The notes below the pieces were generated by a model that saw nothing but the letters and a program-made list of their open reading frames with translations, made no database searches and was not told the origin of the DNA. Positions 800 to 60,102 of a DNA stretch of 64,000 bases are shown in pieces. Position numbers and translations under genes: made by a program. Position 1 is the stretch's first letter; every line of letters starts with the position of its first letter. The stretch comes from Minisyncoccota bacterium (lineage in GTDB: Bacteria > Patescibacteriota > Minisyncoccia > Phycocordibacterales > JACRKE01): assembly GCA_041660505.1 (NCBI GenBank), contig JBAZWG010000001.1:23758-87757 (forward strand), written 5' to 3'.

Positions 800-1828
800 T
801 TATGCAAGCGCCTTCACGCTATGCATTAGGAGTGTGGCGACATAACCCCACTCGTTGTCGTACCAAGAAAGCACTTTGACCAGGTCACCGTCTACGACTT
901 TTGTGAAGTTCAGATCTACAATTGCACCATACGGTTCACCGATAATGTCTGATGAGACAAGCTGTTCTGTCGTCGTCTTCATAATCCCATGCCAGCGTGG
1001 GTCGGCCTCGGCTTTCTTGAATATATTATTAACCTCATCGACTGTCGTTTGGCGCGAAGATATAAAAGTAATATCTGCAAGAGAACCGGTAATGACTGGC
1101 ACACGGAAGGCCAAGCCGTCAAACTTCTTTTCTAATGCGGGAATTGCGCGGGTAACGGCGATAGCGGCGCCGGTCGTTGACGGCACAATGTTGTGCCCGG
1201 CTGCACGACCTCTGCGATAGTCCGTGCCATCCCGTACCGGAGCGTCGTTCGTGCTCTGGGTGTTGGTAATACCGTGAACAGTGCTCAATATCGCTTTCTT
1301 AATACCCAACCCTTCTTGTAAAATCTGCATGACCGGCGAAGCGGAATTAGTGGTGCATGAAGCATTAGAGGATATTGCGCAGGTCTTTAACTTACCGTCA
1401 TTCACACCCATAAGCACGGTGGCACCGCCGCTTGTGCCCTCAGCATCCTTCGCCGGTGCAGTGATTATCGCGCGTTTGGCGCCGGCGTTGATATGTCCCT
1501 CTGCCTTCTCGAAGGATTCGAAAAATCCGGTAGACTCGATAGCGAGGTCAATCCCCAACTTGCCCCAAGGCAACATTGCCGGATCTTTCTCATTCAAAAA
1601 CTGGATAGTTTTACCGGCGATAGTAAAGGTGCGATTGGCTTCGTCTACTATAATGTCATGATGATATTTGCCATAGACAGAATCGTGCTTCAGTAAGTAA
1701 GCAAGATTAGCGACACTGCCAAGATCGTTAATAGCGATAATATCAAACTCCGGCCGGCCGAAAGCTTGGCGGAAGAACAGTCTCCCAATTCTCCCAAAAC
1801 CATTAATGGCAACTTTTTTCTTTGGCAT
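800..1828 (-). CDS. gap: Glyceraldehyde-3-phosphate dehydrogenase (type I)
   Basis: 342 aa with INGFGRIGR NAD-binding motif, active site SNASCTTN, C-terminal WYDNEWGY. Confidence 0.95.
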   Translation of the reverse strand: MPKKKVAINGFGRIGRLFFRQAFGRPEFDIIAINDLGSVANLAYLLKHDSVYGKYHHDIIVDEANRTFTIAGKTIQFLNEKDPAMLPWGKLGIDLAIESTGFFESFEKAEGHINAGAKRAIITAPAKDAEGTSGGATVLMGVNDGKLKTCAISSNASCTTNSASPVMQILQEGLGIKKAILSTVHGITNTQSTNDAPVRDGTDYRRGRAAGHNIVPSTTGAAIAVTRAIPALEKKFDGLAFRVPVITGSLADITFISSRQTTVDEVNNIFKKAEADPRWHGIMKTTTEQLVSSDIIGEPYGAIVDLNFTKVVDGDLVKVLSWYDNEWGYVATLLMHSVKALA

Positions 1829-1892
1829 AAATTTGCAAGTTAGTTACGTGTCATATATTGTATCAGTGACTAGAGTCAATTCCAAAAATATT

Positions 1893-2312
1893 ATGCACAG
1901 AGAACTGCAAGTCGGTGTTAAAATTCTGCTAAAAAACAAATCAGGAAGGTATCTGCTTATTCGCCGTAACCCGAAAAAGTATCCGGAAATCGGTCCAAAG
2001 TGGGACATTGTTGGTGGCAGGATCAAACCCGGGACAGGCTTAGTGCCAAATTTAAAAAGAGAGGTCAAAGAAGAAACCGGTTTGATTCTAAAATGCAAAC
2101 CCACGCTTGTTGCCGCGCAAGATATCTTGCGCATTCCGGAACGCCATGTTGTCAGACTTACCTATCAGGGTACAATCGTCGGCACACCAAAAATAGATTC
2201 AGAGAGCTTAGAATACAAATGGTTTACAAAAGAGGAGATATTCAAACTCTCGCAAAAAGAGATTGATATTTATTTCAAAGAACTAATTAGGCTCAAGCTT
2301 ATAGATTGGTAG
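1893..2312 (+). CDS. NUDIX hydrolase
   Basis: Nudix box GGRIKPGTGLVPNLKREVKEETGL (GX5EX7REVXEEXGU). Start moved to internal ATG 1893 because the ORF-track start 1806 overlaps gap. Confidence 0.8.
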   Translation: MHRELQVGVKILLKNKSGRYLLIRRNPKKYPEIGPKWDIVGGRIKPGTGLVPNLKREVKEETGLILKCKPTLVAAQDILRIPERHVVRLTYQGTIVGTPKIDSESLEYKWFTKEEIFKLSQKEIDIYFKELIRLKLIDW

Positions 2313-22978: not shown

Positions 22979-23629
22979 CTAATGCGCCTTTTTCCACTCG
23001 TCAATTTTTTTGTGATTCCCCGAAGTCAAAACAGCGGGGACTTTATATCGTTTCTCTTTCCACTCCAGAATCTCCGGCCTGGTATAAACATCGTGAGCAC
23101 TTACTCTTTTCTCTTCTATAGAACTTTCGTTGCCTAAAACACCAGAAATCTGTCTGGATACGGCATCTGCGACAATTAGCGCCGGCAACTCCCCGCCTGT
23201 CAGCACATAAGGCCCGACAGAAATTTCATCACCCTTTAATATTTTCTTAACGCGCGCGTCAATGCCTTCATACCGCCCGCAAATTAAAACTATATCAGTA
23301 TATTTTGTATAACCTTTGGCGATAGTATTTGTAAACTGCTTCCCCGCCGGCGAAAAATGAATTATCTTGAATTTATTATATCCTTCTCCACTTTCCACTT
23401 TCGACTTTATACTTTCAACTGTCCGCAGGACAGGTTCCGCATACATCACCATCCCCGGGCCGCCGCCATATGGTATGTCGTCGGTCTTATGATGCTTGTC
23501 GGTCGTAAAATCCCGCGGGTTGTAGAAAGTAATCGAAATTGCGCCAGAGCTTTGTGCTCGCTTCAGTATGGAGTCTTCGGTATAAGGCCGAATAATCTCC
23601 GGAAATGTAGTGATAATATGAAAACGCAT
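22979..23629 (-). CDS. trmD: tRNA (guanine37-N1)-methyltransferase TrmD
   Basis: MRFHIITTFPEII start, IPYGGGPGMVM, GRYEGIDARV motifs. Start set to internal ATG at 23629. Confidence 0.9.
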   Translation of the reverse strand: MRFHIITTFPEIIRPYTEDSILKRAQSSGAISITFYNPRDFTTDKHHKTDDIPYGGGPGMVMYAEPVLRTVESIKSKVESGEGYNKFKIIHFSPAGKQFTNTIAKGYTKYTDIVLICGRYEGIDARVKKILKGDEISVGPYVLTGGELPALIVADAVSRQISGVLGNESSIEEKRVSAHDVYTRPEILEWKEKRYKVPAVLTSGNHKKIDEWKKAH

Positions 23630-23665
23630 CTGCAAAGAATAGCAGTTTTTTGTACTTAACGCCAT

Positions 23666-23932
23666 CTAGTGGGCAAACACAAATTTCTCCACTTTGTCCA
23701 CTCTTTCTACTAATTCCTCGTGATCGAGAGTACTTACAGAGTTTACTTTAAGAAAAGCGACGTCGCGTTTGACCTGTGTCATATCTGCTTCCAGATTTTG
23801 CAGACGCTCGTCAACCTTGTCTAATCTCTGATTAACGCCAGAAAATCCGTTCGCCATCATGACGGCAAGTTTGTCTACGGTCTCCTCGATATGACTTATT
23901 TTTTCTTCGGATGCTTCGCTCATAACCATCAT
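23666..23932 (-). CDS. Small coiled-coil protein (hypothetical), paralog of 48850..49119
   Basis: About 89 aa from the MMVMSEASEEK start. Shares ...QVKRDVAFLK.../...HEELVERVDKVEKF with the 48850 ORF (KVKQDVEFIR / HEDLRSRVGKIESK). Confidence 0.5.
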   Translation of the reverse strand: MMVMSEASEEKISHIEETVDKLAVMMANGFSGVNQRLDKVDERLQNLEADMTQVKRDVAFLKVNSVSTLDHEELVERVDKVEKFVFAH

Positions 23933-24068
23933 GATACTCCAGAGCAAAAATATAACAAGTTGATAACAAAAAACCGCCCGGAGGCGGCTTCTTGGTTCCA
24001 GAGGTTGAACCTTTCCTACCCCCGGCAGGCGCGGTTGATGCTTAAGGTTCAACTTCTTCCAGTCTTTA

Positions 24069-24434
24069 TTATAACTTAAGATCTGCCATGGCTTCATCGA
24101 CCGTCTTGGTCGGTGTAGTCTGGGTGTTCTGTAGCGGGCGGTTCTCTATGCCGACACCCAAATCGTCTTTCTTAATACCGCCTGTGCCGCCTATCGGTTC
24201 GTTGATCTTAAGATTAACACGAGCGTTATTCTTGAGGCCGACAATGCGGAGCAAAGTGCGGATAGCCTTGGCGGTGTTGCCACTGCGACCGATTATCTTA
24301 CCCATGTCCTCCGGATGCACATCGAGCGTGAGCAATACGCCCATCTCGTCAACTGTCCTGTTCACCTTCACTGACTCCGGATGATCTGCAAGCGCCTTAA
24401 TGATACTCTCCAGAAATACCTGATCTTGTTCCAT
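24069..24434 (-). CDS. KH-domain RNA-binding protein (UPF0109/YlqC-like)
   Basis: GKIIGRSGNTAKAIRTLL KH GXXG loop. Sits in the conserved position after rpsP. Confidence 0.8.
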   Translation of the reverse strand: MEQDQVFLESIIKALADHPESVKVNRTVDEMGVLLTLDVHPEDMGKIIGRSGNTAKAIRTLLRIVGLKNNARVNLKINEPIGGTGGIKKDDLGVGIENRPLQNTQTTPTKTVDEAMADLKL

Positions 24435-27380: not shown

Positions 27381-27941
27381 TTAGTTGAGTTTGAAGTGGT
27401 CGCGCAATTTATTATCGGGCGAGATATCGGAGCGCATATAATAGACATGTTCCGGAATATCGAAGTAGTTAATAACAAAATTGATCTCATTTTCACAATC
27501 GAACGGAAATACAAAAACGCTTTTCTGGAACTCCTTGAATCCAAGTCTTTTTAGAGTGTGCCTTAGCGCGTCACGCGTCCTTTTGCTCTCTTCTGGAACA
27601 TCGAACAAAACTACGCGCCAGCGACCGTCCCACTTCTTCTTCGGCTTAAGCTTTAAATTTTTGAACTCCTGGTCTAGGAAATATGCCCTCCCTTTATTCG
27701 TAAGGCGCACCTCCTCAAGATTATTCGTCTTTATCCGCTCAACAAGTCCGCGCGCTTGATAGCGTTCGAGTAATACATAGAGCTTCTTGCGATCGATCTT
27801 ATACCAGATCTTATCGCAAACATTAGCCATTCGCCTACGCTCATAGTTCGTTCGTTGAAAAGCGAGAAAAGACTTAGCCGCCAATAGTGAAAGTATTTGA
27901 AATGAAAACTTGGTCGAGTCTTTAATGTCTTTGACTATCAT
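27381..27941 (-). CDS. PaaX-like winged-helix regulator (wHTH + Cas2-like C-terminal fold)
   Basis: KWDGRWRVVLFDVPEESKRTRDALRHTLKRLGFKEFQKSVFVFP resembles the PaaX C-terminal region. N-terminal HTH-like segment. Confidence 0.55.
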   Translation of the reverse strand: MIVKDIKDSTKFSFQILSLLAAKSFLAFQRTNYERRRMANVCDKIWYKIDRKKLYVLLERYQARGLVERIKTNNLEEVRLTNKGRAYFLDQEFKNLKLKPKKKWDGRWRVVLFDVPEESKRTRDALRHTLKRLGFKEFQKSVFVFPFDCENEINFVINYFDIPEHVYYMRSDISPDNKLRDHFKLN

Positions 27942-38418: not shown

Positions 38419-39129
38419 TTAGCGCATCCCGCGTTCGTAGTTATATCCGCCCTCCGTTTTCGTAAATATGTTATCGCTATACTCGTAGACAAGCGGGGCG
38501 GCAAATGGCAGGTCTAGCAATGGGATTTTCTCATCGCTTATATTGTCGAGATGTTTTATCAGCGCTCGCATCGTATTGCCGTGGCTTACAACGAGTATCG
38601 TCTGACCGCGCTTAAGCCTAGGCAGTATTGAACTTGTAAAATACTCCATTACTCTTGTGTGCACATCCCTAAGGCTCTCGCCTTTTGGCGGAGTGGCTTC
38701 ATAACCTCGACGCCAGTCTCGCACCTGCTCTACACCATACATTTTCTCCGCCTCGTTTTTATTAATGCCTTGCAGGGCGCCATAGGCTCGCTCGTTCAAT
38801 GCGCGATTTGTATATATCGGTAGCAATTGCTTCTTATTCATCGCGAGCGGGCCGGTACGCACCATGCTGTACCAAGGATTCTTACCATGCTCGAATATTC
38901 CAAGCTTCCTTTGGCACGATAAGATTATAAGTAAAGTCTCGTGCGCTCTCTCGAGATGAGAGCTGAACGCAGAGTCGAATTCGAATTTTTTGCAAATCTC
39001 GGCAACTTCCTGCCCCTCTCTTATTCCATCGGCAGTTAAGGGTACATCAAGCCAACCTGTAAAGACGTTGAGTTTATTAAATGACGACTCGCCGTGTCTG
39101 ACGAGCACTAACGTTCCTTTTTTACTCAT
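38419..39129 (-). CDS. gpmA: 2,3-bisphosphoglycerate-dependent phosphoglycerate mutase
   Basis: LVRHGESSFNKLNVFTGWLDVPL histidine-phosphatase motif. 236 aa. Confidence 0.9.
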   Translation of the reverse strand: MSKKGTLVLVRHGESSFNKLNVFTGWLDVPLTADGIREGQEVAEICKKFEFDSAFSSHLERAHETLLIILSCQRKLGIFEHGKNPWYSMVRTGPLAMNKKQLLPIYTNRALNERAYGALQGINKNEAEKMYGVEQVRDWRRGYEATPPKGESLRDVHTRVMEYFTSSILPRLKRGQTILVVSHGNTMRALIKHLDNISDEKIPLLDLPFAAPLVYEYSDNIFTKTEGGYNYERGMR

Positions 39130-41405
39130 GCTTTTATTGTATCATAGTCGTCAAGCTTTACGGAGAGGACGCGCGAGATTGCATCGTTGCCTAAGGTTAT
39201 ACCATACAGAATGCCGGCATGAGCCATCGTCTCGCGATTATGCGTGATAATGATGAGCTGAGTCTGTGAAGAGAGCGCTTCAAGCATATCGCCATATTTT
39301 TTGGAATTAGACTCGTCGAGCGCGGCGTCTGTCTCGTCTAATACTAAAAATGGCGGCGGATTTACCTGCGTAACAGCGAACAAGAGTGCTATCGAGACCA
39401 ATGTTCTTTCGCCACCGGACAAGAGATCCAACGAGCGAATTTTCTTGCGTGGGAGAGAGACGTCTATCTCGAGACCGAGCTCGGGTTTATCAGGTATTAC
39501 AGGGGCTAATTCTTGTGTAAGTTCATCCGCAACTTTTACTCGTTTGATTTTTTCCGCAACTTTGAGTGAAGCCGTTCCTCCGCCGAAAAGTAATTCAAAA
39601 TACTTCGCGAACTCTGCATTTATTTTCTCTATCCCGGACTCGAATTGTGTCTCAAGCTTTTTCTCCAGCTCTGTCTTGACCTGCTCCAATGCTAACCGAC
39701 TTTTCTCCAGATCTGCGACTTCTGTCATTAAGAATGTATCGCGCTCTTTGGTCGCGTCGTACTCCTTGAGTACATCGGTGTTGACTCCGCCAAATTCCTC
39801 GATACGCGCTCGCATACGCTCAATCTTACGCCAGAGTGTCTCGAGCTCGTCTTTGGACTTTAGTGTTATCCCACCCTCTCCTTCGGGGAGGGTCAGGGAG
39901 GGGCTAAGCAAGTTCTTTTGTATCACATACGATATATCAGACAATGCCTGCTTCAGATTCTTCTCGCGTTCATCCACTTGCGCCACAAGTAAAGTCAGAC
40001 TGTCAATACGCGCAGTCAAACGCTCCAGCGTTATCTCCTCCTCGTGCGAACGCTTCTCGGCCTCGATTGACTCCTGCGCCAGTAAATCTCGTGACACGCG
40101 CAGGCGGGCAGTTTGCTCACGCATTACCTTCTCCTTCGTCTCACGTTCGGCAATCTCGTGCCGTTGCATCTCGAGGTCGAAGGTGAGGGCTGATATCTCG
40201 TTGCCAAGTTCTTGCCGACGCGTCTCGTTCTCATCTCCCGCATTTGCATCGTCGCCCCTATGATATAAACCTTGAATATCTTTTATAAGCTCGCGAACCT
40301 TAGCCTTCAAAAAATTAATGTCAGCCAAACTCTCAAGCTCATGCACCAGTGCGCTCGCGCGATGTACGAGTGACGAGAGATGTGTTTCTGATATTTTAAC
40401 AAAACTCTCGCTAGTGCTGTTCGCCGGTGAGGCGAGCGTCGTCAGTGTTCGCTGCTTTTCTCCCAAAGCACCCTCCATCTTGCCAACTTCACGCGATAAT
40501 TCTAGCCGTTCATAGGTAATCTTACTGATTTCCGCCTCTGACTCTCTGATATTTTTATCAAGCTCTTGGGTAGCGCGATTCTCGGCGTGCTTGCCTTGTT
40601 GTGCACGCTCGCGGCGCGTCACATCGAGCTTGTCGCGCTCAAGTTTATATCGCTCCAGTTCTATCACATGCGCCTGCCGTTCTTCATCCAGCCGGCCAAA
40701 GGTGTGAGTAAAGTAGTCGCGCGCCAACGCCTCAAGCTCGATACGCACCGCTTCGGTTTTGCGAATTTGCTCTACTTGTTTCTCTAAATATTTAAGATGA
40801 GGTGCCAATTCTTTTCGCAGGAGTTCGACCTGCTTCAAGTTCTCTTCTGTCTTCGCCAGCTTTCTCTCACTCTCGTCTTTCTTATATTCTATTAAAGACA
40901 AGCCGAGTGCGTCATCGATCATCTCGCGTCGCTCTGTGCTCGAGGCATAGAGAAGTCTATCCGCCTCGCCTTGGCTGATAATATGATGCTGTGAGGTGCC
41001 GAGGCCGGCGCCCGCAAGTAGTTCTACAATATCTTTTAATCTAACTTTAGAATTGTTTAAATAGTATTCATTAACGCCGTCACGATACACATGCCGTGAT
41101 ATAGTAACTTCATCGAAGTCTATGTTAAGAAATCTGGAGACGTTATTTAACGTGACAGCGACAGACGCATGCTGTAAACGTTGTGCAGTTTGTGAGCCAT
41201 GAAAGATAAAATCCTCGCCTTTCTTGGCGCGCATGCCTTTAGCTGATTGATCGCCCAAGACCCATCTGAATGCCTCCACAACATTACTCTTGCCGGAGCC
41301 ATTAGGCCCCACCACGGCCGTAACCGGTGAGCTGAATTCGAATTTGGTCTTCTTGGCAAAAGATTTAAAACCGGCTATCTCTAGCGACTTGAGGTACATA
41401 GACAT
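39126..41405 (-). CDS. smc: SMC-family chromosome segregation ATPase (short form, 759 aa)
   Basis: N-terminal Walker A GPNGSGKSN. C-terminal signature LSGGERTLVSIALLFA and Walker B LDETDAALD. Central coiled-coil much shorter than canonical SMC. Confidence 0.8.
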   Translation of the reverse strand: MSMYLKSLEIAGFKSFAKKTKFEFSSPVTAVVGPNGSGKSNVVEAFRWVLGDQSAKGMRAKKGEDFIFHGSQTAQRLQHASVAVTLNNVSRFLNIDFDEVTISRHVYRDGVNEYYLNNSKVRLKDIVELLAGAGLGTSQHHIISQGEADRLLYASSTERREMIDDALGLSLIEYKKDESERKLAKTEENLKQVELLRKELAPHLKYLEKQVEQIRKTEAVRIELEALARDYFTHTFGRLDEERQAHVIELERYKLERDKLDVTRRERAQQGKHAENRATQELDKNIRESEAEISKITYERLELSREVGKMEGALGEKQRTLTTLASPANSTSESFVKISETHLSSLVHRASALVHELESLADINFLKAKVRELIKDIQGLYHRGDDANAGDENETRRQELGNEISALTFDLEMQRHEIAERETKEKVMREQTARLRVSRDLLAQESIEAEKRSHEEEITLERLTARIDSLTLLVAQVDEREKNLKQALSDISYVIQKNLLSPSLTLPEGEGGITLKSKDELETLWRKIERMRARIEEFGGVNTDVLKEYDATKERDTFLMTEVADLEKSRLALEQVKTELEKKLETQFESGIEKINAEFAKYFELLFGGGTASLKVAEKIKRVKVADELTQELAPVIPDKPELGLEIDVSLPRKKIRSLDLLSGGERTLVSIALLFAVTQVNPPPFLVLDETDAALDESNSKKYGDMLEALSSQTQLIIITHNRETMAHAGILYGITLGNDAISRVLSVKLDDYDTIKA

Positions 41406-41460
41406 ATAATATCATAGCGAAGGTTTTACAGTAGTGGACAATGTGCTATATTCACAATAT

Positions 41461-42561
41461 ATGAAAAAGAAAACAGGGGGCAAGATCAGAGTTGGGGTGC
41501 TGTTCGGCGGGAAGTCGGCAGAGCATGAGGTTTCTTTACAGTCGGCGCAAAATATCATTAAGGCTTTAGACAGGACGAAGTATGACGTGGTGCCTATTGG
41601 CATTGACAAGCATGGCAAGTGGCTTTTGCACGACCCGTTGAACTACCTTCTAAATGCAGCCGATCCTAAGTTAATCAAACTGAACTCCTCAAGTAGAAGT
41701 GTAGCACTTGCTCCAGAAAGCGCCGGGAAGATTACTGCGCTTTCTACACAGGAGCCGATGGGTAGTATCGATGTGGTGTTCCCTGTCTTGCACGGACCAT
41801 TTGGTGAGGACGGCAGTATTCAGGGCTTACTTAAAGTTGCCAACGTGCCATTCGTCGGCGCAGGCGTGCTCGGTTCGGCCGTCGGGATGGACAAGGATGT
41901 GATGAAGCGATTACTCCGCGACGCCGGCATACCGATTGGTAAATTTATCACCGTGGCCGGTTATGAAAAAATTACATTTGCGCAAGCTAAGAAGAAATTA
42001 GGTACCCCACTATTCATAAAGCCGGCCAACATGGGCTCATCGGTTGGCGTGAGCAAGGTAAAGAATGAGAAAGAATTTAAATCAGCGCTAGCAGAAGCAT
42101 TTAAATACGATACAAAAGTTTTGATAGAAGAGATGATAGTAGGCAGAGAGATAGAATGTTCCGTCCTCGGCAATGAGCATCCGATGGCATCGGTGCCGGG
42201 CGAAGTCATCCCGCATCAAGACTTCTACTCCTATGATGCGAAGTATATTGACCCGGACGGAGCGGGCTTAGAAGTGCCGGCAAAATTGCCAAAAAATATT
42301 GTAAAGAAAGTGCAAGACGTAGCGATAAAGACATTCAAGGCACTGAACTGTGAGGGACTCGGTAGAGTTGATATGTTCCTCAAGAAGAACGGTCAGATTT
42401 TCGTGAATGAAATCAACACTATCCCTGGCTTTACCAAAATCAGCATGTACCCCAAGCTGTGGGAAGCCTCCGGCATGCCGCAACCAAAACTACTTGATAA
42501 TCTCATCAAATTGGGAATCGAACGCTTCGAACGAGATCAGAAATTGCAGACAGAGAAGTAG
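41461..42561 (+). CDS. ddl: D-alanine--D-alanine ligase
   Basis: [14 protein letters not shown] and ATP-grasp motifs ([19 protein letters not shown]). Alternative GTG start at 41434. Confidence 0.9.
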
Positions 42562-42628
42562 ATTCGATAAGTTGAAGTTCGCAACGAATTGTGTTAGTTA
42601 TGTACACGGAAGTGCTGAAAGGAGTTCT

Positions 42629-42997
42629 ATGAAAATAAAGGTTCTTGGTTATGGGCCTGCGGACCTGCTTGAGCAAATCTTAAAGCAGGAATGGTCACCG
42701 TGTAATGATGGTGGTCAAAATTTCACGTCCATCACTGTCAAGAGCGGAGAGCTCAAGGCCTGCTTCTCAGTGCCTCGAGGCAAGGAGGAATTCATTCACA
42801 CTGCTCTGTTCTTGGTACGCGTGGGACGCAAGAGAGGCGTGTCCGTTCGTAACGCATTCGTCACGCTTACATTCTTCGACTTGCTGTGCAAGAGCGGGAG
42901 AAGGGCTCTCTTGCTCAATGGCAACCGCCTAGTGGAGAGACCTTCTGGGAAGAAACCTGTGCGCTACTGCGCCACCTTTACCTTCGAAAACACGTAG
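42629..42997 (+). CDS. Hypothetical protein (122 aa), GC-rich orphan
   Basis: SD aaaggag 5 nt upstream of the ATG. Overlaps the ddl 3' end in another frame. Followed by terminator-like element A. Confidence 0.5.
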   Translation: MKIKVLGYGPADLLEQILKQEWSPCNDGGQNFTSITVKSGELKACFSVPRGKEEFIHTALFLVRVGRKRGVSVRNAFVTLTFFDLLCKSGRRALLLNGNRLVERPSGKKPVRYCATFTFENT

Positions 42998-43005
42998 CTC
43001 CTGCC

Positions 43006-43058
43006 AAGCTGCCGGAAAGTTGCTGTAACCGCACTTCCCGGCAGCTTTTCGTTTTATA
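43006..43058 (+). terminator. Terminator-like conserved element, copy A (diverged)
   Basis: aagctgccgg...ccggcagctt 10-bp stem plus ttcgtttt. Loop sequence related to the 53-bp elements at 48666 and 49397. Confidence 0.6.
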
Positions 43059-43085
43059 AGCTAGCACACAAGACTACCTTGTGTG

Positions 43086-43769
43086 CTACCAGCCAAGTTT
43101 ATCGAGGGCGCTTCGCGCGGCGTCTTGCTCCGCTTCTTGTTTGGACGGGCCTTTGCCTTTTGTAATCAGATCCGGGCCAAGGAAGACGCCTACGGTAAAG
43201 ACTTTGTCATGGTCGGGACCTTCTTCGCCCACCACTTCGTAGCGCGGGGTGACACTGCGTTTTTCTTGTGACACTTCTTGCAGAGCACTCTTTGCGTCAC
43301 GCCACAACTTCTTTTTTACTATCTCATCGGTTTTTGGAATTAAAGTACGGGCGATAAAGTCCTTGGCTACAGCATAACCTTGATCAAGATATATAGCGCC
43401 AATGATTGCCTCATAGGCGTTGGCCAATATCGACTGGCGTGCGCGTCCGGTATCTTTGGCTTCACCCTTAGACATTAGCAAGAACTTCTGAACGTCGAGC
43501 GATGACGAAATCTGAGAAATACTCACTGTATTCACCAACGCCGCTCTATATGCTGTGAGCTCGCCCTCCCACACTTTGGGGTATTTGTGATAGAGATATT
43601 CCGTCACCACTAATTCTAAAACTGCATCGCCAAGAAATTCAAGCCGTTCATTGTGCGAAAGCTGGAAGCTGGGATTCTCATTTAAATATGACCGATGCGT
43701 CAAAGCCTGCTGGATATATTCTCTATTTTGGAACTGTACGCCGATGGTCTTTTCGAATTTTTCTAGCAT
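43086..43769 (-). CDS. rnc: Ribonuclease III
   Basis: ERLEFLGDAVLELVVTEYLY signature. C-terminal dsRBD. Confidence 0.95.
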   Translation of the reverse strand: MLEKFEKTIGVQFQNREYIQQALTHRSYLNENPSFQLSHNERLEFLGDAVLELVVTEYLYHKYPKVWEGELTAYRAALVNTVSISQISSSLDVQKFLLMSKGEAKDTGRARQSILANAYEAIIGAIYLDQGYAVAKDFIARTLIPKTDEIVKKKLWRDAKSALQEVSQEKRSVTPRYEVVGEEGPDHDKVFTVGVFLGPDLITKGKGPSKQEAEQDAARSALDKLGW

Positions 43770-43837
43770 AAAATTATTTTGTCTTAGAAGGCGAGGCCTT
43801 GAGCATCTAGAAGGCCTCGCCTTCTAATTCCTAGTCA

Positions 43838-44758
43838 TTATTTCGCGACAAGTGTTATGGCTTTAGTAATTATTGGTATTAAATCGTCATAAATTTTAAG
43901 GTGTACGACTTCATGCACCTCAAACCATCTTGCATCGTCAAGGCCGGTGGAATTGTGGATTAACTCATCGCGCAAAGGCGCCTTGAGCAAGAAATATACT
44001 ACTTGTCGGCGCACCTTCCCTGAGTGCTCGTCATTCGCTATGTATTCGTTGTGCCCTAAGTCGGCCTCAACCACCGTGTGTAAACCCAACTCTTCTTCTA
44101 TCTTTCTCACGACAGCGTCTTTGTCATTCTCTCCCGAATCGATATGACCTTTCGACAGCGTCCAGAATCCGAAAATATCATGCACGAGAGCTAAATAAAT
44201 TTCTCCATCTTCTACTGTATATACAACTCCTCCCGCTATTTTCTCTACGTTCATTTTTTCGAGATCGGCAGGAGAATAATCTTGGATTTTATTGCGTGAT
44301 TTTTTCTCCTTCTTCTTCGGCTTCTCGTTCTTGCCCGGCTCGCCCATCTCTTTATATACCGTGCCGAGCACGCCGTTCACAAATCTGCCAGACGATTCCC
44401 CGCCGAACGTCTTCGCCAGTTCTATCGATTCATTAATGGCAACTTTGGCTGGCACCTCGCCCTTCTCCGAAAATAAAAGCTCGTATAAGCCGATACGCAG
44501 GATGTTGCGATCAACCATCGAGATTTTATCCAATGGCCATTCCGGCGCGGCCTTCACAATAAGCTGGTCAAGCGCACTGCGTTTACTGGCAACGCCTTGT
44601 GCGAGAACGTCAACAAATTCCCTGTCGGTCAGACCGGGTCCGAATTCTTCTATATTTTTCTCGAGGATATGCGGGAGGTTAGCCAAGGGCTGACTGCGGA
44701 AGTCGAGCTCAAAGAGTGATTGTAAAACGATACTTCTTGAAAGGTGCCTATTGGCCAT
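43838..44758 (-). CDS. NusB-domain / NUDIX hydrolase fusion protein
   Basis: N-terminal NusB helices (RHLSRSIVLQSLFELDFRS...DRNILRIGLYELLF). Lys-rich linker. C-terminal Nudix box GHIDSGENDKDAVVRKIEEELGL. Confidence 0.8.
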   Translation of the reverse strand: MANRHLSRSIVLQSLFELDFRSQPLANLPHILEKNIEEFGPGLTDREFVDVLAQGVASKRSALDQLIVKAAPEWPLDKISMVDRNILRIGLYELLFSEKGEVPAKVAINESIELAKTFGGESSGRFVNGVLGTVYKEMGEPGKNEKPKKKEKKSRNKIQDYSPADLEKMNVEKIAGGVVYTVEDGEIYLALVHDIFGFWTLSKGHIDSGENDKDAVVRKIEEELGLHTVVEADLGHNEYIANDEHSGKVRRQVVYFLLKAPLRDELIHNSTGLDDARWFEVHEVVHLKIYDDLIPIITKAITLVAK

Positions 44759-44806
44759 GTCGAAATTTATTGTACCCCAGAATTCAAAAAGGTTCAAGCA
44801 AAACAA

Positions 44807-44842
44807 GAGGTTCGACCTTTTAGATGCTCAAGGTCGAACCTC
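44807..44842 (-). terminator. Palindromic terminator family gaggttcgacctt / aaggtcgaacctc (copy 1), downstream of rpmF
   Basis: 13-bp perfect stem with A-run on the plus strand upstream (U-run for the minus transcript). Near-identical copy at 60067-60102. Confidence 0.65.
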
Positions 44843-44860: not shown

Positions 44861-45082
44861 CTATGACTGCTTTGCCGCGTCTGCTTTTCTCTTCTTTTTG
44901 TCTTCAGCCTTCTTGGTCTTCTTCATGACATCGATGATTTCACGGCCATTATAACTGCCGCAGGTCATGCAGAGCGTGTGTGAGCGGACAGGAGCTTTGC
45001 ACTTAGGGCAAACGCTCTTAGGCGTCTCGGTCAGCGCGTGATGGGATCGTCTATTGTCGCGGTGTGCCCGCGTATGTCGCAT
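44861..45082 (-). CDS. rpmF: 50S ribosomal protein L32
   Basis: MRHTRAHRDNRRSHHAL...CPKC...CMTCGSY zinc ribbon typical of bL32. Confidence 0.85.
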   Translation of the reverse strand: MRHTRAHRDNRRSHHALTETPKSVCPKCKAPVRSHTLCMTCGSYNGREIIDVMKKTKKAEDKKKRKADAAKQS

Positions 45083-45178
45083 GTGTACTACCATTTCAGT
45101 ATTATTTATTGTTTATTTCTTGTTGGGCAAATAATACCCTATTTTAACCAAAAACGCAAATTTTCTTTATTCATAATA

Positions 45179-49471: not shown

Positions 49472-49490
49472 ATCAACACCGAGTGTTGAT
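49472..49490. repeat. Palindrome family 2 (atcaacac-cga-gtgttgat), 5' copy
   Basis: 8-bp perfect arms with a 3-nt loop, about 22 bp upstream of the second transposase ATG. Confidence 0.8.
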
Positions 49491-49512
49491 ATTTCGTGAT
49501 ATACTCTCAAGT

Positions 49513-50193
49513 ATGAGAGTTATTGAAATTTGCGAGGATGAGTACTACCATGTTTTGAATCGAGGAATTAATAAGCAAAAAATCTTTCTTGATGATCGAG
49601 ACCGTGCTCGGTTTTTATTTCTTATCTTGTTTTTGCAGTCTCCTGCCCTGGTAAATAATATGAGTGATTTCGCCGCGAGATTTACAGATCTTATTCTTGC
49701 TGATGAATACAACATACTTGCGGTGAAAGAACTAGATGAACTTTGGAATAAAATGAAGGAGTCGAGGTGTGTGGAGCTCCTGGCGTTTGCACTTATGGGG
49801 AACCACTTTCATATCGCCGTTCATGCACTCAAGGATTCAGGAATAGCAACCTATTTGCAACGAGTGCAGAACGCGTATACAAAATACTTTAATATAAAAC
49901 ACGATCGGACGGGACATTTATTCCAGGGACCATACAAAGTCGTACACCAACCAGACGACGAACGTCTCATGATGCTTACTGCGTATATCCACCATAACCC
50001 GAATGAGGTTTTAGATAGTAGAGCTGAAGTTGAAGCATTCAAATGGTCTAGCTACCAGGATTACCACAACAATAATCGCTGGGGCGAGTTATTAAAGCCA
50101 GAAATAGTACTCGAACAATTTTCCAATCCCGCGGAATACCTAGAATTCGTTAACGATGGCAACGTAAAATCAACACCGAGTGTTGATAAATAG
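49513..50193 (+). CDS. IS200-like / REP-associated tyrosine transposase (Y1 HUH), copy 2
   Basis: YYHVLNRG ... GNHFHIAVH (HuH) ... GPYKVVHQPDDERLMMLTAYIHHNP (Tyr region). Diverged from copy 1. Confidence 0.85.
   Translation: MRVIEICEDEYYHVLNRGINKQKIFLDDRDRARFLFLILFLQSPALVNNMSDFAARFTDLILADEYNILAVKELDELWNKMKESRCVELLAFALMGNHFHIAVHALKDSGIATYLQRVQNAYTKYFNIKHDRTGHLFQGPYKVVHQPDDERLMMLTAYIHHNPNEVLDSRAEVEAFKWSSYQDYHNNNRWGELLKPEIVLEQFSNPAEYLEFVNDGNVKSTPSVDK
50169..50187. repeat. Palindrome family 2, 3' copy (inside the last codons of the transposase)
   Basis: Identical atcaacaccgagtgttgat. Confidence 0.8.
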
Positions 50194-60066: not shown

Positions 60067-60102
60067 GAGGTTCGACCTTTTGGATGCCTAAGGTCGAACC
60101 TC
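60067..60102 (-). terminator. Palindromic terminator family gaggttcgacctt (copy 2), downstream of the DUF5679 gene
   Basis: Same 13-bp stem as 44807-44842. A-run on the plus-strand 5' side. Confidence 0.65.

What the first reader, a model, noticed from the sequence alone, without database searches (positions are those of the whole stretch)
43838..44758. NusB antitermination domain fused to a NUDIX hydrolase
Residues 1-140 carry the NusB fold signature. A Lys-rich linker follows. The C-terminal about 150 aa carry an intact Nudix box GHIDSGENDKDAVVRKIEEELGL. A separate stand-alone NUDIX gene also exists at 1893..2312. Coupling an RNA-binding antitermination factor to a pyrophosphohydrolase, possibly a decapping-like or nucleotide-sanitising activity, is not a canonical bacterial architecture.
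Basis: partly seen in the sequence, partly recalled or inferred. Interest (0 to 1): 0.5.

Follow-up and report, generated by a model that had tools for sequence, protein, structure and literature searches.

The report
NusB with a tethered Nudix-fold domain
This gene is the organism's real NusB transcription factor carrying an extra Nudix-type domain, a fusion kept in hundreds of tiny uncultured (Parcubacteria/CPR) bacteria, but the enzyme's catalytic motif is imperfect here and varies freely in relatives, so the extra domain probably binds rather than cuts.

Summary
A single 306-aa ORF on the minus strand (43838..44758) has a NusB domain (Pfam 5e-31; above the NCBIfam NusB equivalog cutoff). 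A disordered Lys-rich linker follows, then a Nudix-fold domain (Pfam 3e-13). It is not a frameshift artefact. At least 590 species-level Parcubacteria/Minisyncoccota genomes encode the full-length fusion, always in an rpmF–nusB::nudix–rnc(–smc) cluster. Related genomes carry a plain NusB in the same slot.

The Nudix half resembles Ap4A/Ap6A hydrolases (Aquifex 3i7u, Ndx1, NUDT2), not RppH or MutT.

"Intact Nudix box" is only partly right. The metal-binding Glu of RExxEE is Lys219 here. Only 84 of 193 close relatives have a fully canonical box, and this Glu changed state at least 34 times on their tree. Of 56 diverse fusions, 11 no longer match Pfam NUDIX. Even so, the domain is under purifying selection.

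Best reading: this is a genuine NusB with a tethered accessory module whose conserved role does not depend on hydrolysis. I infer that it binds a nucleotide or 5' polyphosphate group, or helps assemble the complex, on the pre-rRNA leader.

I found no paper describing the fusion. I rate it a new variant of a known kind, of moderate interest.

The parts
43838..44758 (-). Complete nusB::nudix CDS (306 aa plus stop)
   Evidence: ORF list and sequence. Pfam and NCBIfam hits. A 100% identical protein occurs in a Candidatus Paceibacterota MAG on a 719 kb contig, annotated 'transcription antitermination factor NusB'.
44339..44758 (-). NusB domain, aa 1-140
   Evidence: PF01029 E=5e-31. TIGR01951 116.9 bits, above cutoff. 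Foldseek matches: Aquifex NusB 3r2d TM 0.86, T. maritima 1tzv TM 0.82. F126 aligns with E. coli F122 (BoxA U8 stacking) and F16 with E. coli Y18 (NusE interface) (PMC3177189).
44249..44338 (-). Lys-rich flexible linker, aa 141-170
   Evidence: pLDDT below 50 for aa 141-154 and pTM 0.51. pI 9.6. Family linker length 20-36 aa, median K+R fraction 0.25.
43841..44248 (-). Nudix-fold domain, aa 171-306, of the Ap(n)A-hydrolase type
   Evidence: PF00293 E=3e-13. PDB sequence hits: Ndx1 1vc8, Aquifex Ap4A hydrolase 3i7u, CT771, C. elegans Ap4A hydrolase and NUDT2. Foldseek: 3i7u TM 0.89 at rmsd 1.9; 1vc8 TM 0.87. Acidic, pI 5.0.
44081..44149 (-). Nudix box, aa 204-226, GHIDSGENDKDAVVRKIEEELGL. It deviates at Lys219 (codon 44102-44104).
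   Evidence: Read directly from the sequence. Position counts across the family.
43086..43769 (-). rnc (RNase III), the next gene downstream on the same strand
   Evidence: TIGR02191 260.9 bits. It lies immediately downstream in 80 of 80 related loci, with a median gap of about 66 nt.
44861..45094 (-). rpmF (ribosomal protein L32), the next gene upstream on the same strand
   Evidence: TIGR01031. It lies upstream in 77 of 80 related loci.
44769..44797 (-). Promoter-like TTGAAC-17-TACAAT, ending 11 nt before the ATG
   Evidence: Consensus scan only. A TACAAT-like box sits at a similar distance in L089. Function is not shown.
43789..43826 (-). Strong hairpin between nusB::nudix and rnc
   Evidence: 17-bp stem, dG -31.5 kcal/mol, z=-6.0. 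Related hairpins occupy the same position in L087, L089 and L091. It belongs to a dispersed hairpin family.

Best explanation
This is the lineage's genuine NusB, the BoxA-RNA and S10-binding antitermination and rRNA-maturation factor. In Parcubacteria/Minisyncoccota it has gained a C-terminal Ap(n)A-hydrolase-type Nudix-fold domain. A 20-36 aa flexible, basic linker joins that domain directly to helix alpha7, the BoxA-binding helix. The gene sits in a conserved rpmF–nusB::nudix–rnc(–smc) cluster and is probably co-expressed with RNase III.

Shown: the architecture is real; the gene is the positional orthologue of plain NusB; the NusB key residues are kept; the Nudix subtype is Ap(n)A-hydrolase-like; both domains are under purifying selection; the catalytic Nudix-box residues are not conserved.

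Inferred: the Nudix module is an accessory that acts in cis on the NusB/S10–BoxA leader complex. Its conserved role is to bind a nucleoside-polyphosphate group. The most plausible target is the 5'-ppp or Np(n)-capped end of the pre-rRNA leader. This would help hold or mark the leader during co-transcriptional RNase III processing. Hydrolysis would be an optional extra, kept only in members with a full box. In this particular protein, Lys219 replaces a metal-ligand Glu, so canonical Mg-dependent hydrolysis is probably weak or absent.
For: Real fusion. The ORF is uninterrupted. All 120 best homologues carry both Pfam domains. At least 590 species-representative genomes encode the full length. 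Dozens of 50%-identity clusters, down to about 27% identity, keep it.

Genuine NusB. It scores above the TIGR01951 equivalog cutoff. F126 matches E. coli F122 and is kept in 56 of 56 diverse fusions; F16 matches E. coli Y18 (PMC3177189). Plain NusB relatives sit in the same rpmF–nusB–rnc slot.

Synteny. rnc is downstream in 80 of 80 loci, rpmF upstream in 77 of 80 and smc present in 67 of 80. The order is kept in distant members.

Tether. The linker is disordered and pTM is 0.51.

Nudix subtype. An Ap4A-hydrolase-type Nudix, NUDT2, can act on ppp-RNA ends (PMC8616924).

Catalysis not conserved. Only 84 of 193 close relatives have the canonical GEREEEG pattern. The RE-Glu changed state at least 34 times on the NJ tree, whereas K203, Y239 and F126 changed 0 times. 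In 56 diverse representatives the box positions are only 23-75% conserved, while W199, K203, Y255, W278 and Y290 are at least 90% conserved. Eleven of the 56 fail Pfam NUDIX. RExxEE is the metal-binding motif (PMC5526541). The PDB title of 4ijx names a human Ap4A hydrolase E58A mutant; from the NUDT2 sequence as I remember it, E58 is the RE-Glu and would correspond to Lys219.

Domain still selected. Non-synonymous difference pN is 0.08-0.17 against saturated synonymous difference pS of 0.8-1.0.
Against: No experiment exists, and the binding target is inferred only.

E223 is nearly invariant (192 of 193) and E222 is 92% conserved in the close family. A metal site and some activity may therefore persist. 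Some authors argue that no protein base is needed in Nudix catalysis (PMC5526541).

The Nudix domain is acidic, pI about 5. That fits poorly with extended RNA binding.

Most residues conserved across the wide family are aromatic or Gly and may simply maintain the fold.

I assigned K203, Y239 and Y290 to phosphate and base contacts from my recollection of the C. elegans Ap4A hydrolase structure. I could not verify this in the paper library.

No rRNA leader or BoxA could be examined. I could not test whether the genome lacks a second nusB, or lacks suhB, rppH or rho.
Confidence: 0.4

Rival explanations
1. SuhB-like structural subunit. The Nudix fold is a catalytically irrelevant protein-protein or protein-RNA scaffold. 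It would stabilise NusB/S10 on RNA polymerase, NusA or NusG (or recruit RNase III), replacing accessory factors such as SuhB that these reduced genomes may lack.
For: Catalytic residues are unconstrained while the fold is kept and under purifying selection. In E. coli an enzyme-fold protein, SuhB, is needed for stable integration of NusB/E into the rRNA antitermination complex (rrnTAC). It works partly through NusA-AR2, a domain that is not universally conserved (PMC6614801). The domain is acidic. Non-enzymatic Nudix domains are a recognised class (abstract of PMC5389931).
Against: No partner has been identified. K203, the Lys of the PKG motif, and E223 stay highly conserved, which hints at a ligand or metal site rather than only a protein interface. 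Presence or absence of suhB in these genomes was not testable here.
Confidence: 0.2
2. The Nudix domain is an active NusB-targeted RNA 5'-end pyrophosphohydrolase or decapping enzyme acting on ppp-, Np4A- or NAD-capped nascent leader RNA. This would trigger 5'-end-dependent decay of the excised leader.
For: The domain is tethered next to the BoxA-binding helix. The nearest relatives are Ap4A/Ap6A hydrolases, and NUDT2 of that clade trims ppp-RNA (PMC8616924). Dcp2 Nudix domains are next-best profile hits. 84 of 193 close relatives have a full box, and E223 is near-invariant. The gene is adjacent to RNase III.
Against: This protein has Lys at the RE-Glu metal ligand. That site flipped at least 34 times on the tree. 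About 22 of 193 close relatives have lost three box residues. Many distant fusions have no recognisable box. RppH NCBIfam models score 14-30 bits against cutoffs of 116-259.
Confidence: 0.15
3. Small-molecule module. The domain hydrolyses or senses free dinucleoside polyphosphates or alarmones (ApnA, (p)ppGpp-like compounds). This would couple rRNA antitermination to nucleotide or stress status, analogous to the ligand-sensing Nudix domain of NrtR.
For: The best sequence and structure matches are free-ApnA hydrolases. The NrtR Nudix domain appears among Foldseek hits (rank 4). A degenerate box with a retained fold is typical of sensor-type Nudix domains.
Against: The NrtR match is poor (rmsd 6.5). 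There is no evidence of a conformational link between the domains, since the linker is disordered. Why a free-metabolite enzyme should be covalently tied to NusB in at least 590 species is unexplained.
Confidence: 0.15
4. Artefact. A frameshift, misassembly or read-through has joined two separate genes (nusB plus a Nudix gene).
For: None found. One apparent stand-alone Nudix (P0259, L082) was checked.
Against: P0259 is a contig-end artefact with the NusB tail in frame upstream. The fusion is continuous in independent assemblies from NCBI, JGI, ENA and Logan. It is conserved down to about 27% identity.
Confidence: 0.01

Closest known systems
Canonical bacterial NusB (E. coli, Aquifex, T. maritima, M. 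tuberculosis; TIGR01951/PF01029)
   Same: The N-terminal 140 aa is a full NusB. It has the seven-helix fold, scores above the equivalog cutoff and carries the FVNGVLG motif with the BoxA-stacking Phe. It also has an aromatic residue at the S10 interface. Plain NusB of related bacteria occupies the same genomic slot.
   Different: It carries an extra 165 aa, made of a basic linker and a Nudix-fold domain. In this phylum the gene sits between rpmF and rnc.
Ap4A/Ap6A Nudix hydrolases (Aquifex aq_158 3i7u, T. thermophilus Ndx1 1vc8, C. elegans 1ktg, human NUDT2, Chlamydia CT771, mycobacterial MutT1/Rv2985 N-domain)
   Same: These are the best sequence and fold matches: TM 0.87-0.89 and 23-28% identity. 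They share the W-x-x-[PS]-K-G-H lead-in to the box and have a similar size.
   Different: Those are free-standing enzymes (or, in MutT1, fused to a His-phosphatase domain) with strictly canonical boxes. Here the domain is fused to NusB. The RE-Glu is Lys in this protein, and the box is variably degenerate across the family.
RsmB/Sun 16S rRNA m5C967 methyltransferase (NusB-like N-domain plus enzyme)
   Same: The design principle is the same: a NusB-type RNA-binding domain at the N-terminus with a nucleotide-handling enzyme fold at the C-terminus, in rRNA biogenesis.
   Different: RsmB models score 41-57 bits against cutoffs of 269-540. Here the N-domain is true NusB, and the C-domain is Nudix rather than a methyltransferase.
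SuhB in the E. coli rRNA antitermination complex
   Same: It is an enzyme-fold protein working with NusB/E on the rrn leader RNA, and it is needed for NusB/E integration (PMC6614801).
   Different: There is no homology: SuhB has an inositol monophosphatase fold. It is a separate dimeric protein that binds NusA-AR2. The analogy is functional and untested.
RppH / BdRppH / Dcp2 RNA 5'-end Nudix enzymes
   Same: They share the Nudix fold. BdRppH and Dcp2 appear among weaker structural and profile hits. A role at RNA 5' ends is conceivable.
   Different: The RppH equivalog models are far below cutoff. Those enzymes keep an intact box.
NrtR-type non-catalytic Nudix regulators
   Same: A Nudix fold with a degenerate box serves as a ligand-binding module attached to a gene-expression factor.
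   Different: NrtR is a DNA-binding repressor with a wHTH domain, and its structural match here is poor (rmsd 6.5).

Membership tests
NusB (TIGR01951 / PF01029) | Profile score above the curated equivalog cutoff | tested here: met
   TIGR01951 scores 116.9 bits against a cutoff of 88.35. PF01029 scores 108.2 bits against 23.1.
NusB (TIGR01951 / PF01029) | All-helical seven-helix NusB fold | tested here: met
   The AF2 model has helices at 4-20, 25-39, 46-58, 60-70, 81-96, 104-119 and 121-138. Foldseek TM is 0.82-0.86 to solved NusB structures.
NusB (TIGR01951 / PF01029) | BoxA-contacting helix alpha7 with the conserved Phe (E. coli F122) that stacks on BoxA U8 | tested here: met
   F126 aligns with E. 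coli F122 within ...GGESSGRFVNGVLG. It is kept in 56 of 56 diverse fusions. The role of F122 comes from PMC3177189.
NusB (TIGR01951 / PF01029) | Buried aromatic residue at the NusE (S10) interface (E. coli Y18) | tested here: met
   F16 aligns with E. coli Y18 and is nearly invariant in the close family. This is a conservative Tyr-to-Phe substitution. The role of Y18 comes from PMC3177189.
NusB (TIGR01951 / PF01029) | Binds S10 and a BoxA element in the rRNA leader | not testable with these tools
   No rRNA gene occurs in the window or in the 96 fetched loci. No binding assay is possible.
Nudix hydrolase superfamily (PF00293) | Nudix alpha/beta/alpha fold and a Pfam score above gathering | tested here: met
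   PF00293 scores 50.4 bits against a cutoff of 21.1. Fold matches have TM up to 0.89.
Nudix hydrolase superfamily (PF00293) | Complete Nudix box GX5EX7REUXEEXGU, whose RExxEE binds the catalytic metal | tested here: not met
   The box reads G204-x5-E210-x7-R218-K219-I-E-E222-E223-L-G225-L, so the RE-Glu is Lys. Only 84 of 193 close relatives are fully canonical. The motif's role comes from PMC5526541.
Nudix hydrolase superfamily (PF00293) | Mg/Mn-dependent pyrophosphohydrolase activity | not testable with these tools
   This needs biochemistry.
Ap(n)A hydrolase (NUDT2 / Ndx1-like) subfamily | Closest sequence and structure relatives are ApnA hydrolases | tested here: met
   phmmer: Ndx1 E=1.8e-9 and 3i7u E=7e-7. 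Profile search: CT771 E=9e-11. Foldseek: 3i7u E=1.5e-9.
Ap(n)A hydrolase (NUDT2 / Ndx1-like) subfamily | Catalytic Glu residues of the box (NUDT2 E58, which is the RE-Glu; Ndx1 E50, which is the second Glu of EE) | tested here: inconclusive
   The Ndx1 E50 equivalent, E223, is present (alignment). The NUDT2 E58 equivalent is Lys219; that mapping rests on the box register and the NUDT2 sequence as I remember it, and no NUDT2 alignment was shown. E58A and E50Q are named as mutants in the PDB entry titles of 4ijx and 1vc9.
RppH RNA pyrophosphohydrolase | Score above the NCBIfam RppH equivalog cutoffs | tested here: not met
   NF001936 scores 29.7 bits against a cutoff of 118. The other RppH models score 14-17 bits against 116-259.
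RsmB (NusB-like domain + methyltransferase) | Score above the RsmB equivalog cutoffs, with a methyltransferase domain | tested here: not met
   It scores 56.5 bits against 319 and 41.1 against 269, covering the N-domain only. Pfam finds no methyltransferase domain.

The most novel reading that the evidence does not exclude
In Parcubacteria the rRNA antitermination factor NusB has a built-in reader, and in some lineages an eraser, of the RNA 5' polyphosphate or cap. The fused domain would take over the role that separate accessory proteins such as SuhB play in E. coli. It would physically couple BoxA recognition, the 5'-end status of the pre-rRNA leader and RNase III processing. That would be the first bacterial transcription elongation or antitermination factor with an integrated 5'-end recognition domain.
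Probability: 0.2. Interest if true: 0.7.

Novelty: new variant of a known kind. Interest (0 to 1): 0.45.

Why it matters
NusB is a core, well-studied factor, and no accessory enzyme-fold domain on it has been characterised. I found no paper describing this fusion.

The fusion is kept across a large uncultured clade with very small genomes, which suggests these organisms build their rRNA transcription and processing complex differently. The freely varying catalytic motif makes it a natural example of a Nudix enzyme fold turning into, or alternating with, a binding module.

It is directly testable by in vitro hydrolysis and binding assays, E. coli nusB complementation with and without the domain, and reconstitution with S10 and a BoxA leader. 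It also matters for annotation. Public records call the protein simply "NusB" and hide half of it, while a label of "Nudix hydrolase" would overstate what the sequence supports.

Tried and rejected
1. Frameshift or split gene: rejected.

2. Stand-alone version of this Nudix subfamily. P0259 looked like one, but it is a contig-end artefact with the NusB tail in frame upstream. Other hits matching only the C-terminal part (150-250 aa) overlap part of the NusB region or linker and look like truncated fusions. They were not checked individually.

3. The fused Nudix as a paralogue of the stand-alone NUDIX at 1806-2312: rejected. They share only 9 of 28 identities, all around the box, and the stand-alone gene is MutT-like.

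4. BoxA and rRNA leader test. There is no rRNA in the window or in the 96 loci. The regex BoxA hits are scattered single matches and were not examined further.

5. dN/dS per domain. Synonymous sites are saturated (pS 0.6-1.1), so only the pN-versus-pS contrast is usable.

6. Taxonomy of distant fusions via cluster names: no organism names were returned.

7. Foldseek against AFDB50: the library was not available.

8. Literature. Four searches (NusB+Nudix+fusion; NusB+CPR; NusB/Nudix/domain architecture; Ap4A hydrolase Tyr76/Tyr121) found nothing on the fusion. They also did not verify my recollection of the C. elegans residue roles.

9. Complementary-loop hairpins flanking the ORF as a gene-specific RNase III bracket: downgraded. 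The element (CCTT-N10-AAGG inside a GGTTCGACC stem) also occurs at 60069-60100. Only 2 of 5 close genomes have it on both sides.
Full report
**1. The observation**

The window has one uninterrupted ORF on the minus strand. The ATG is at 44758 and the stop at 43838-43840, giving 306 aa. A longer TTG start at 44806 is mechanically possible, but every homologue begins MANRHL.

Pfam finds NusB (PF01029, aa 7-136, E=5.2e-31) and NUDIX (PF00293, aa 177-291, E=2.9e-13). NCBIfam's NusB equivalog TIGR01951 scores 116.9 bits, above its 88.35 cutoff. RsmB and RppH models fall far below theirs.

An AlphaFold2 model built on 31 homologues has mean pLDDT 86.5. It shows a seven-helix N-domain (aa 4-138), a disordered segment (aa 141-154, pLDDT below 50) and an alpha/beta C-domain (aa 163-305). 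pTM is only 0.51, so the model does not fix the two domains relative to each other.

The linker GEPGKNEKPKKKEKKSRNKIQDYSPADLEKMN is basic, pI 9.6.

The quoted Nudix box is present at aa 204-226 (window 44081-44149). It is not fully canonical: G204-x5-E210-x7-R218-K219-I-E-E222-E223-L-G225-L has Lys where RExxEE requires Glu.

It is MutT-like, with PDB best hit 3grn 'MutT related protein'. It shares only the box region with the fused domain.

**2. Not an artefact, and not rare**

A 100% identical protein comes from a Candidatus Paceibacterota MAG on a 719 kb contig, named only 'transcription antitermination factor NusB'. All 120 best database hits (55-89% identity, about 300 aa) carry both Pfam domains.

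Of those, 590 encode a relative. The best 80 each span at least residues 1-301 of the 306. By record title they are Yonath-, Vogel-, Kaiser-, Campbell- and Lloydbacteria, Parcubacteria group, Paceibacterota or Minisyncoccia. NCBI now files Paceibacterota as phylum Minisyncoccota. Many records carry 'uncultured Candidatus Saccharibacteria' titles, which I suspect are generic labels. I did not verify that.

An exhaustive HMMER search of 50%-identity cluster representatives found 148 hits at E<1e-30. About 55 of the best 150 are full-length fusions, down to about 27% identity.

The one apparent stand-alone copy of this Nudix subfamily (P0259) is a contig-end artefact with the NusB tail in frame upstream.

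**3. Genomic context**

In all 80 fetched loci RNase III (rnc) follows on the same strand. The median gap is about 66 nt, and 69 of 80 gaps are 150 nt or less. rpmF (L32) precedes in 77 of 80 loci, and smc follows rnc in 67 of 80. The window shows the same order: rpmF at 44861-45094 and rnc at 43086-43769, both confirmed by NCBIfam. Here a ddl gene on the opposite strand sits between rnc and smc.

Distant fusions at 27-37% identity keep rpmF–fusion–rnc.

Related genomes with a plain 144-152 aa NusB (51-60% identical to the N-domain) have it in the same slot, directly followed by rnc. The fusion protein is therefore the positional orthologue of NusB, with a domain added at its C-terminus. It is not a second, NusB-like paralogue.

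**4. The NusB half looks functional**

Aligned to E. coli NusB, F126 corresponds to F122 and F16 to Y18. F122 stacks on BoxA U8 and is required for function. Y18 is buried in the NusB–S10 interface (PMC3177189).

F126 is kept in 56 of 56 diverse fusions. The surrounding VPxKVAINExIELAKxFGG...FVNGVLG block is the most conserved part of the protein.

The BoxA-binding surface lies largely on the C-terminal helix alpha7 (PMC3177189). The linker and Nudix domain therefore emerge right next to the RNA site. That placement is an inference from the sequence.

**5. What kind of Nudix domain**

By sequence, the closest solved proteins are T. thermophilus Ndx1 (Ap6A hydrolase, E=1.8e-9), Aquifex Ap4A hydrolase, Chlamydia CT771, C. 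elegans Ap4A hydrolase and human NUDT2. With a family profile, CT771 reaches E=9e-11, and Dcp2 Nudix domains appear at about 5e-6.

By structure, the best matches are Aquifex 3i7u (TM 0.89, rmsd 1.9 Å) and Ndx1 (TM 0.87). C. elegans Ap4A hydrolase (1ktg) also ranks near the top, and the mycobacterial MutT1/Rv2985 diadenosine polyphosphatases match through one domain of a longer chain. BdRppH and NrtR are weaker matches.

The domain therefore belongs to the Ap(n)A-hydrolase-like branch. One member of that branch, NUDT2, also trims 5'-ppp RNA (PMC8616924).

**6. The catalytic motif is not what is conserved**

RExxEE binds the essential metal (PMC5526541). This protein has Lys219 at the RE-Glu. 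The PDB entry 4ijx is titled as a human Ap4A hydrolase E58A mutant. From the NUDT2 sequence as I remember it, E58 is this same RE-Glu.

*Close family, 193 distinct sequences.*
- G204 is kept in 190, E210 in 157 and R218 in 155.
- The RE-Glu is kept in 112, with Lys in 54.
- E222 is kept in 178, E223 in 192 and G225 in 173.
- Only 84 have the fully canonical key-residue pattern.
- 26 share the exact key-residue pattern seen here (RE changed to RK).
- About 22 have lost three residues ([V/I]...[A/S/N]K).

*NJ tree built without the box columns.*
- The RE-Glu changed state at least 34 times.
- 'Fully canonical' changed at least 36 times.
- K203, Y239 and F126 changed 0 times.
- Even the nearest relatives differ: this protein has RK, while P0005 and P0007 (84% identical) have RE.

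*56 diverse representatives.*
- The box positions are 23-75% conserved.
- W199, K203, Y255, W278 and Y290 are at least 90% conserved.
- 11 of the 56 no longer match Pfam NUDIX at E≤0.001, while all 56 match NusB.

*The domain is not decaying.* Among five close relatives, non-synonymous difference is 0.08-0.17 in the Nudix part and 0.04-0.13 in NusB. Synonymous difference is saturated at 0.6-1.1. The domain has persisted in the same position across the whole clade.

Orthologous enzymes normally keep their catalytic ligands almost invariant. This pattern argues that hydrolysis is not the selected, family-wide function. It does not exclude activity in the members with a full box. E223 and E222 stay highly conserved in the close family, so a metal or ligand site may persist.

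**7. How it most likely works**

*Shown.* It is a genuine NusB with a flexibly tethered Ap(n)A-hydrolase-type fold. It lies in a conserved cluster with RNase III. Both halves are under purifying selection, and the catalytic residues are dispensable.

*Inferred, confidence about 0.4.* The module works in cis on the NusB/S10–BoxA leader complex as a binder of a nucleoside-polyphosphate group. The most plausible target is the 5'-ppp or Np(n)-capped end of the pre-rRNA leader. Binding would help hold or mark the leader while the RNase III processing stems form. Hydrolysis would be retained only in some lineages and is probably weak or absent in this Lys219 protein.

The assignment of K203 (PKG Lys) to phosphate contact and of Y239/Y290 to base stacking rests on my recollection of the C. 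elegans Ap4A hydrolase structure. I could not verify it in the library.

*Rivals.*
- A SuhB-like, purely structural subunit (0.2). In E. coli, SuhB is an enzyme-fold protein required to integrate NusB/E (PMC6614801).
- A free ApnA or alarmone hydrolase or sensor (0.15).
- An artefact (about 0.01).

The acidic character of the domain (pI 5.0; family median 4.9) argues mildly against extended RNA binding. It is compatible with a small-ligand or protein partner.

**8. Comparison with known systems and novelty**

The N-half passes every NusB membership test I could run. The C-half is a Nudix-fold domain of the ApnA-hydrolase branch, but it fails the strict Nudix-box test.

The nearest architectural analogue is RsmB, which joins a NusB-like domain to an rRNA methyltransferase. 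This protein is not an RsmB.

Searches of the held literature found nothing on a NusB–Nudix fusion. The large Nudix-clan survey PMC5389931 contains no mention of NusB. Public records name the protein only 'NusB'.

I therefore rate it a new variant of a known kind. It is widespread and already in databases, but undescribed and functionally open. Interest is moderate (0.45). The fusion itself and its near-universal linkage to rnc would interest transcription and CPR specialists. The degenerate box weakens the more exciting 'decapping antiterminator' reading.

**9. Limits**

- No rRNA leader or BoxA could be inspected.
- Whole-genome questions could not be asked with ±10 kb loci. These include a second nusB and the presence of suhB, rho, rppH or RNase J.
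- The AFDB50 fold library was unavailable.

Noticed in passing
window 43789-43826, 44809-44842 and 60069-60100: Three copies of an intergenic hairpin element with a GC-rich 12-17 bp stem ending CCTT, a 10-nt loop, then AAGG. Two of them flank the nusB::nudix ORF in opposite orientation, so in the mRNA their loops (GAGCAUCUAA and CUAGAUGCUC) are complementary. The downstream one has dG -31.5 and z=-6. Relatives L089 and L090 also have complementary-loop copies on both sides with a different loop sequence. L087 and L091 have only the copy upstream of rnc. This is probably a dispersed terminator-like or REP-like element. A loop-loop or RNase III role is not excluded.
   Followed up: partly
window 44769-44797 (minus strand): A promoter-like TTGAAC-17-TACAAT ends 11 nt before the nusB::nudix ATG, implying a very short leader. 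A TACAAT-like box sits at a similar distance in L089.
   Followed up: no
window 1806-2312 (+): Stand-alone NUDIX protein of MutT type. Pfam E=1.1e-14; the best PDB hit is 3grn 'MutT related protein'. It is not a paralogue of the fused domain.
   Followed up: yes
window 41434-42561 (+) and 42562-43085: A D-Ala-D-Ala ligase-like ORF on the opposite strand sits between rnc and smc. That placement is seen only in this genus-level group (also L087 and L089); in most relatives smc follows rnc more directly. The roughly 520-bp stretch up to rnc holds only an ORF (42407-42997) with no Pfam hit.
   Followed up: no
window 49483-50193 (+): ORF with an IS200-like Y1 transposase domain (PF01797, E=8e-8) just downstream of dnaE.
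   Followed up: no
window 27381-27941 (-); L083 3574-4128: PaaX_M / Cas2-like domain protein (PF20803, E=7.5e-23). A gene with the same Pfam family lies directly after a stand-alone nusB in locus L083. This may be coincidence.
   Followed up: no
window 38419-39129 (-): Histidine-phosphatase superfamily protein (PF00300, E=1.7e-37). Its stop overlaps the start of the smc-like ORF (39126-41405), which lies upstream on the same strand. Mycobacterial MutT1, a structural neighbour of the fused Nudix domain, has a chain about twice the Nudix length; from memory its second domain is a His-phosphatase. No link was tested.
   Followed up: no
P0235 and P0252 (about 340 aa): Some related NusB proteins carry long Lys/Glu-rich low-complexity C-terminal tails instead of a Nudix domain. 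C-terminal extensions of NusB therefore seem to be a recurring theme in these bacteria.
   Followed up: no
window 22979-24434 (-): A KhpA-like KH-domain protein (24069-24434), an ORF with no Pfam hit (23666-24097) and tRNA m1G methyltransferase TrmD (22979-23665) lie in a row. This resembles the usual rpsP–KH–rimM–trmD cluster.
   Followed up: no
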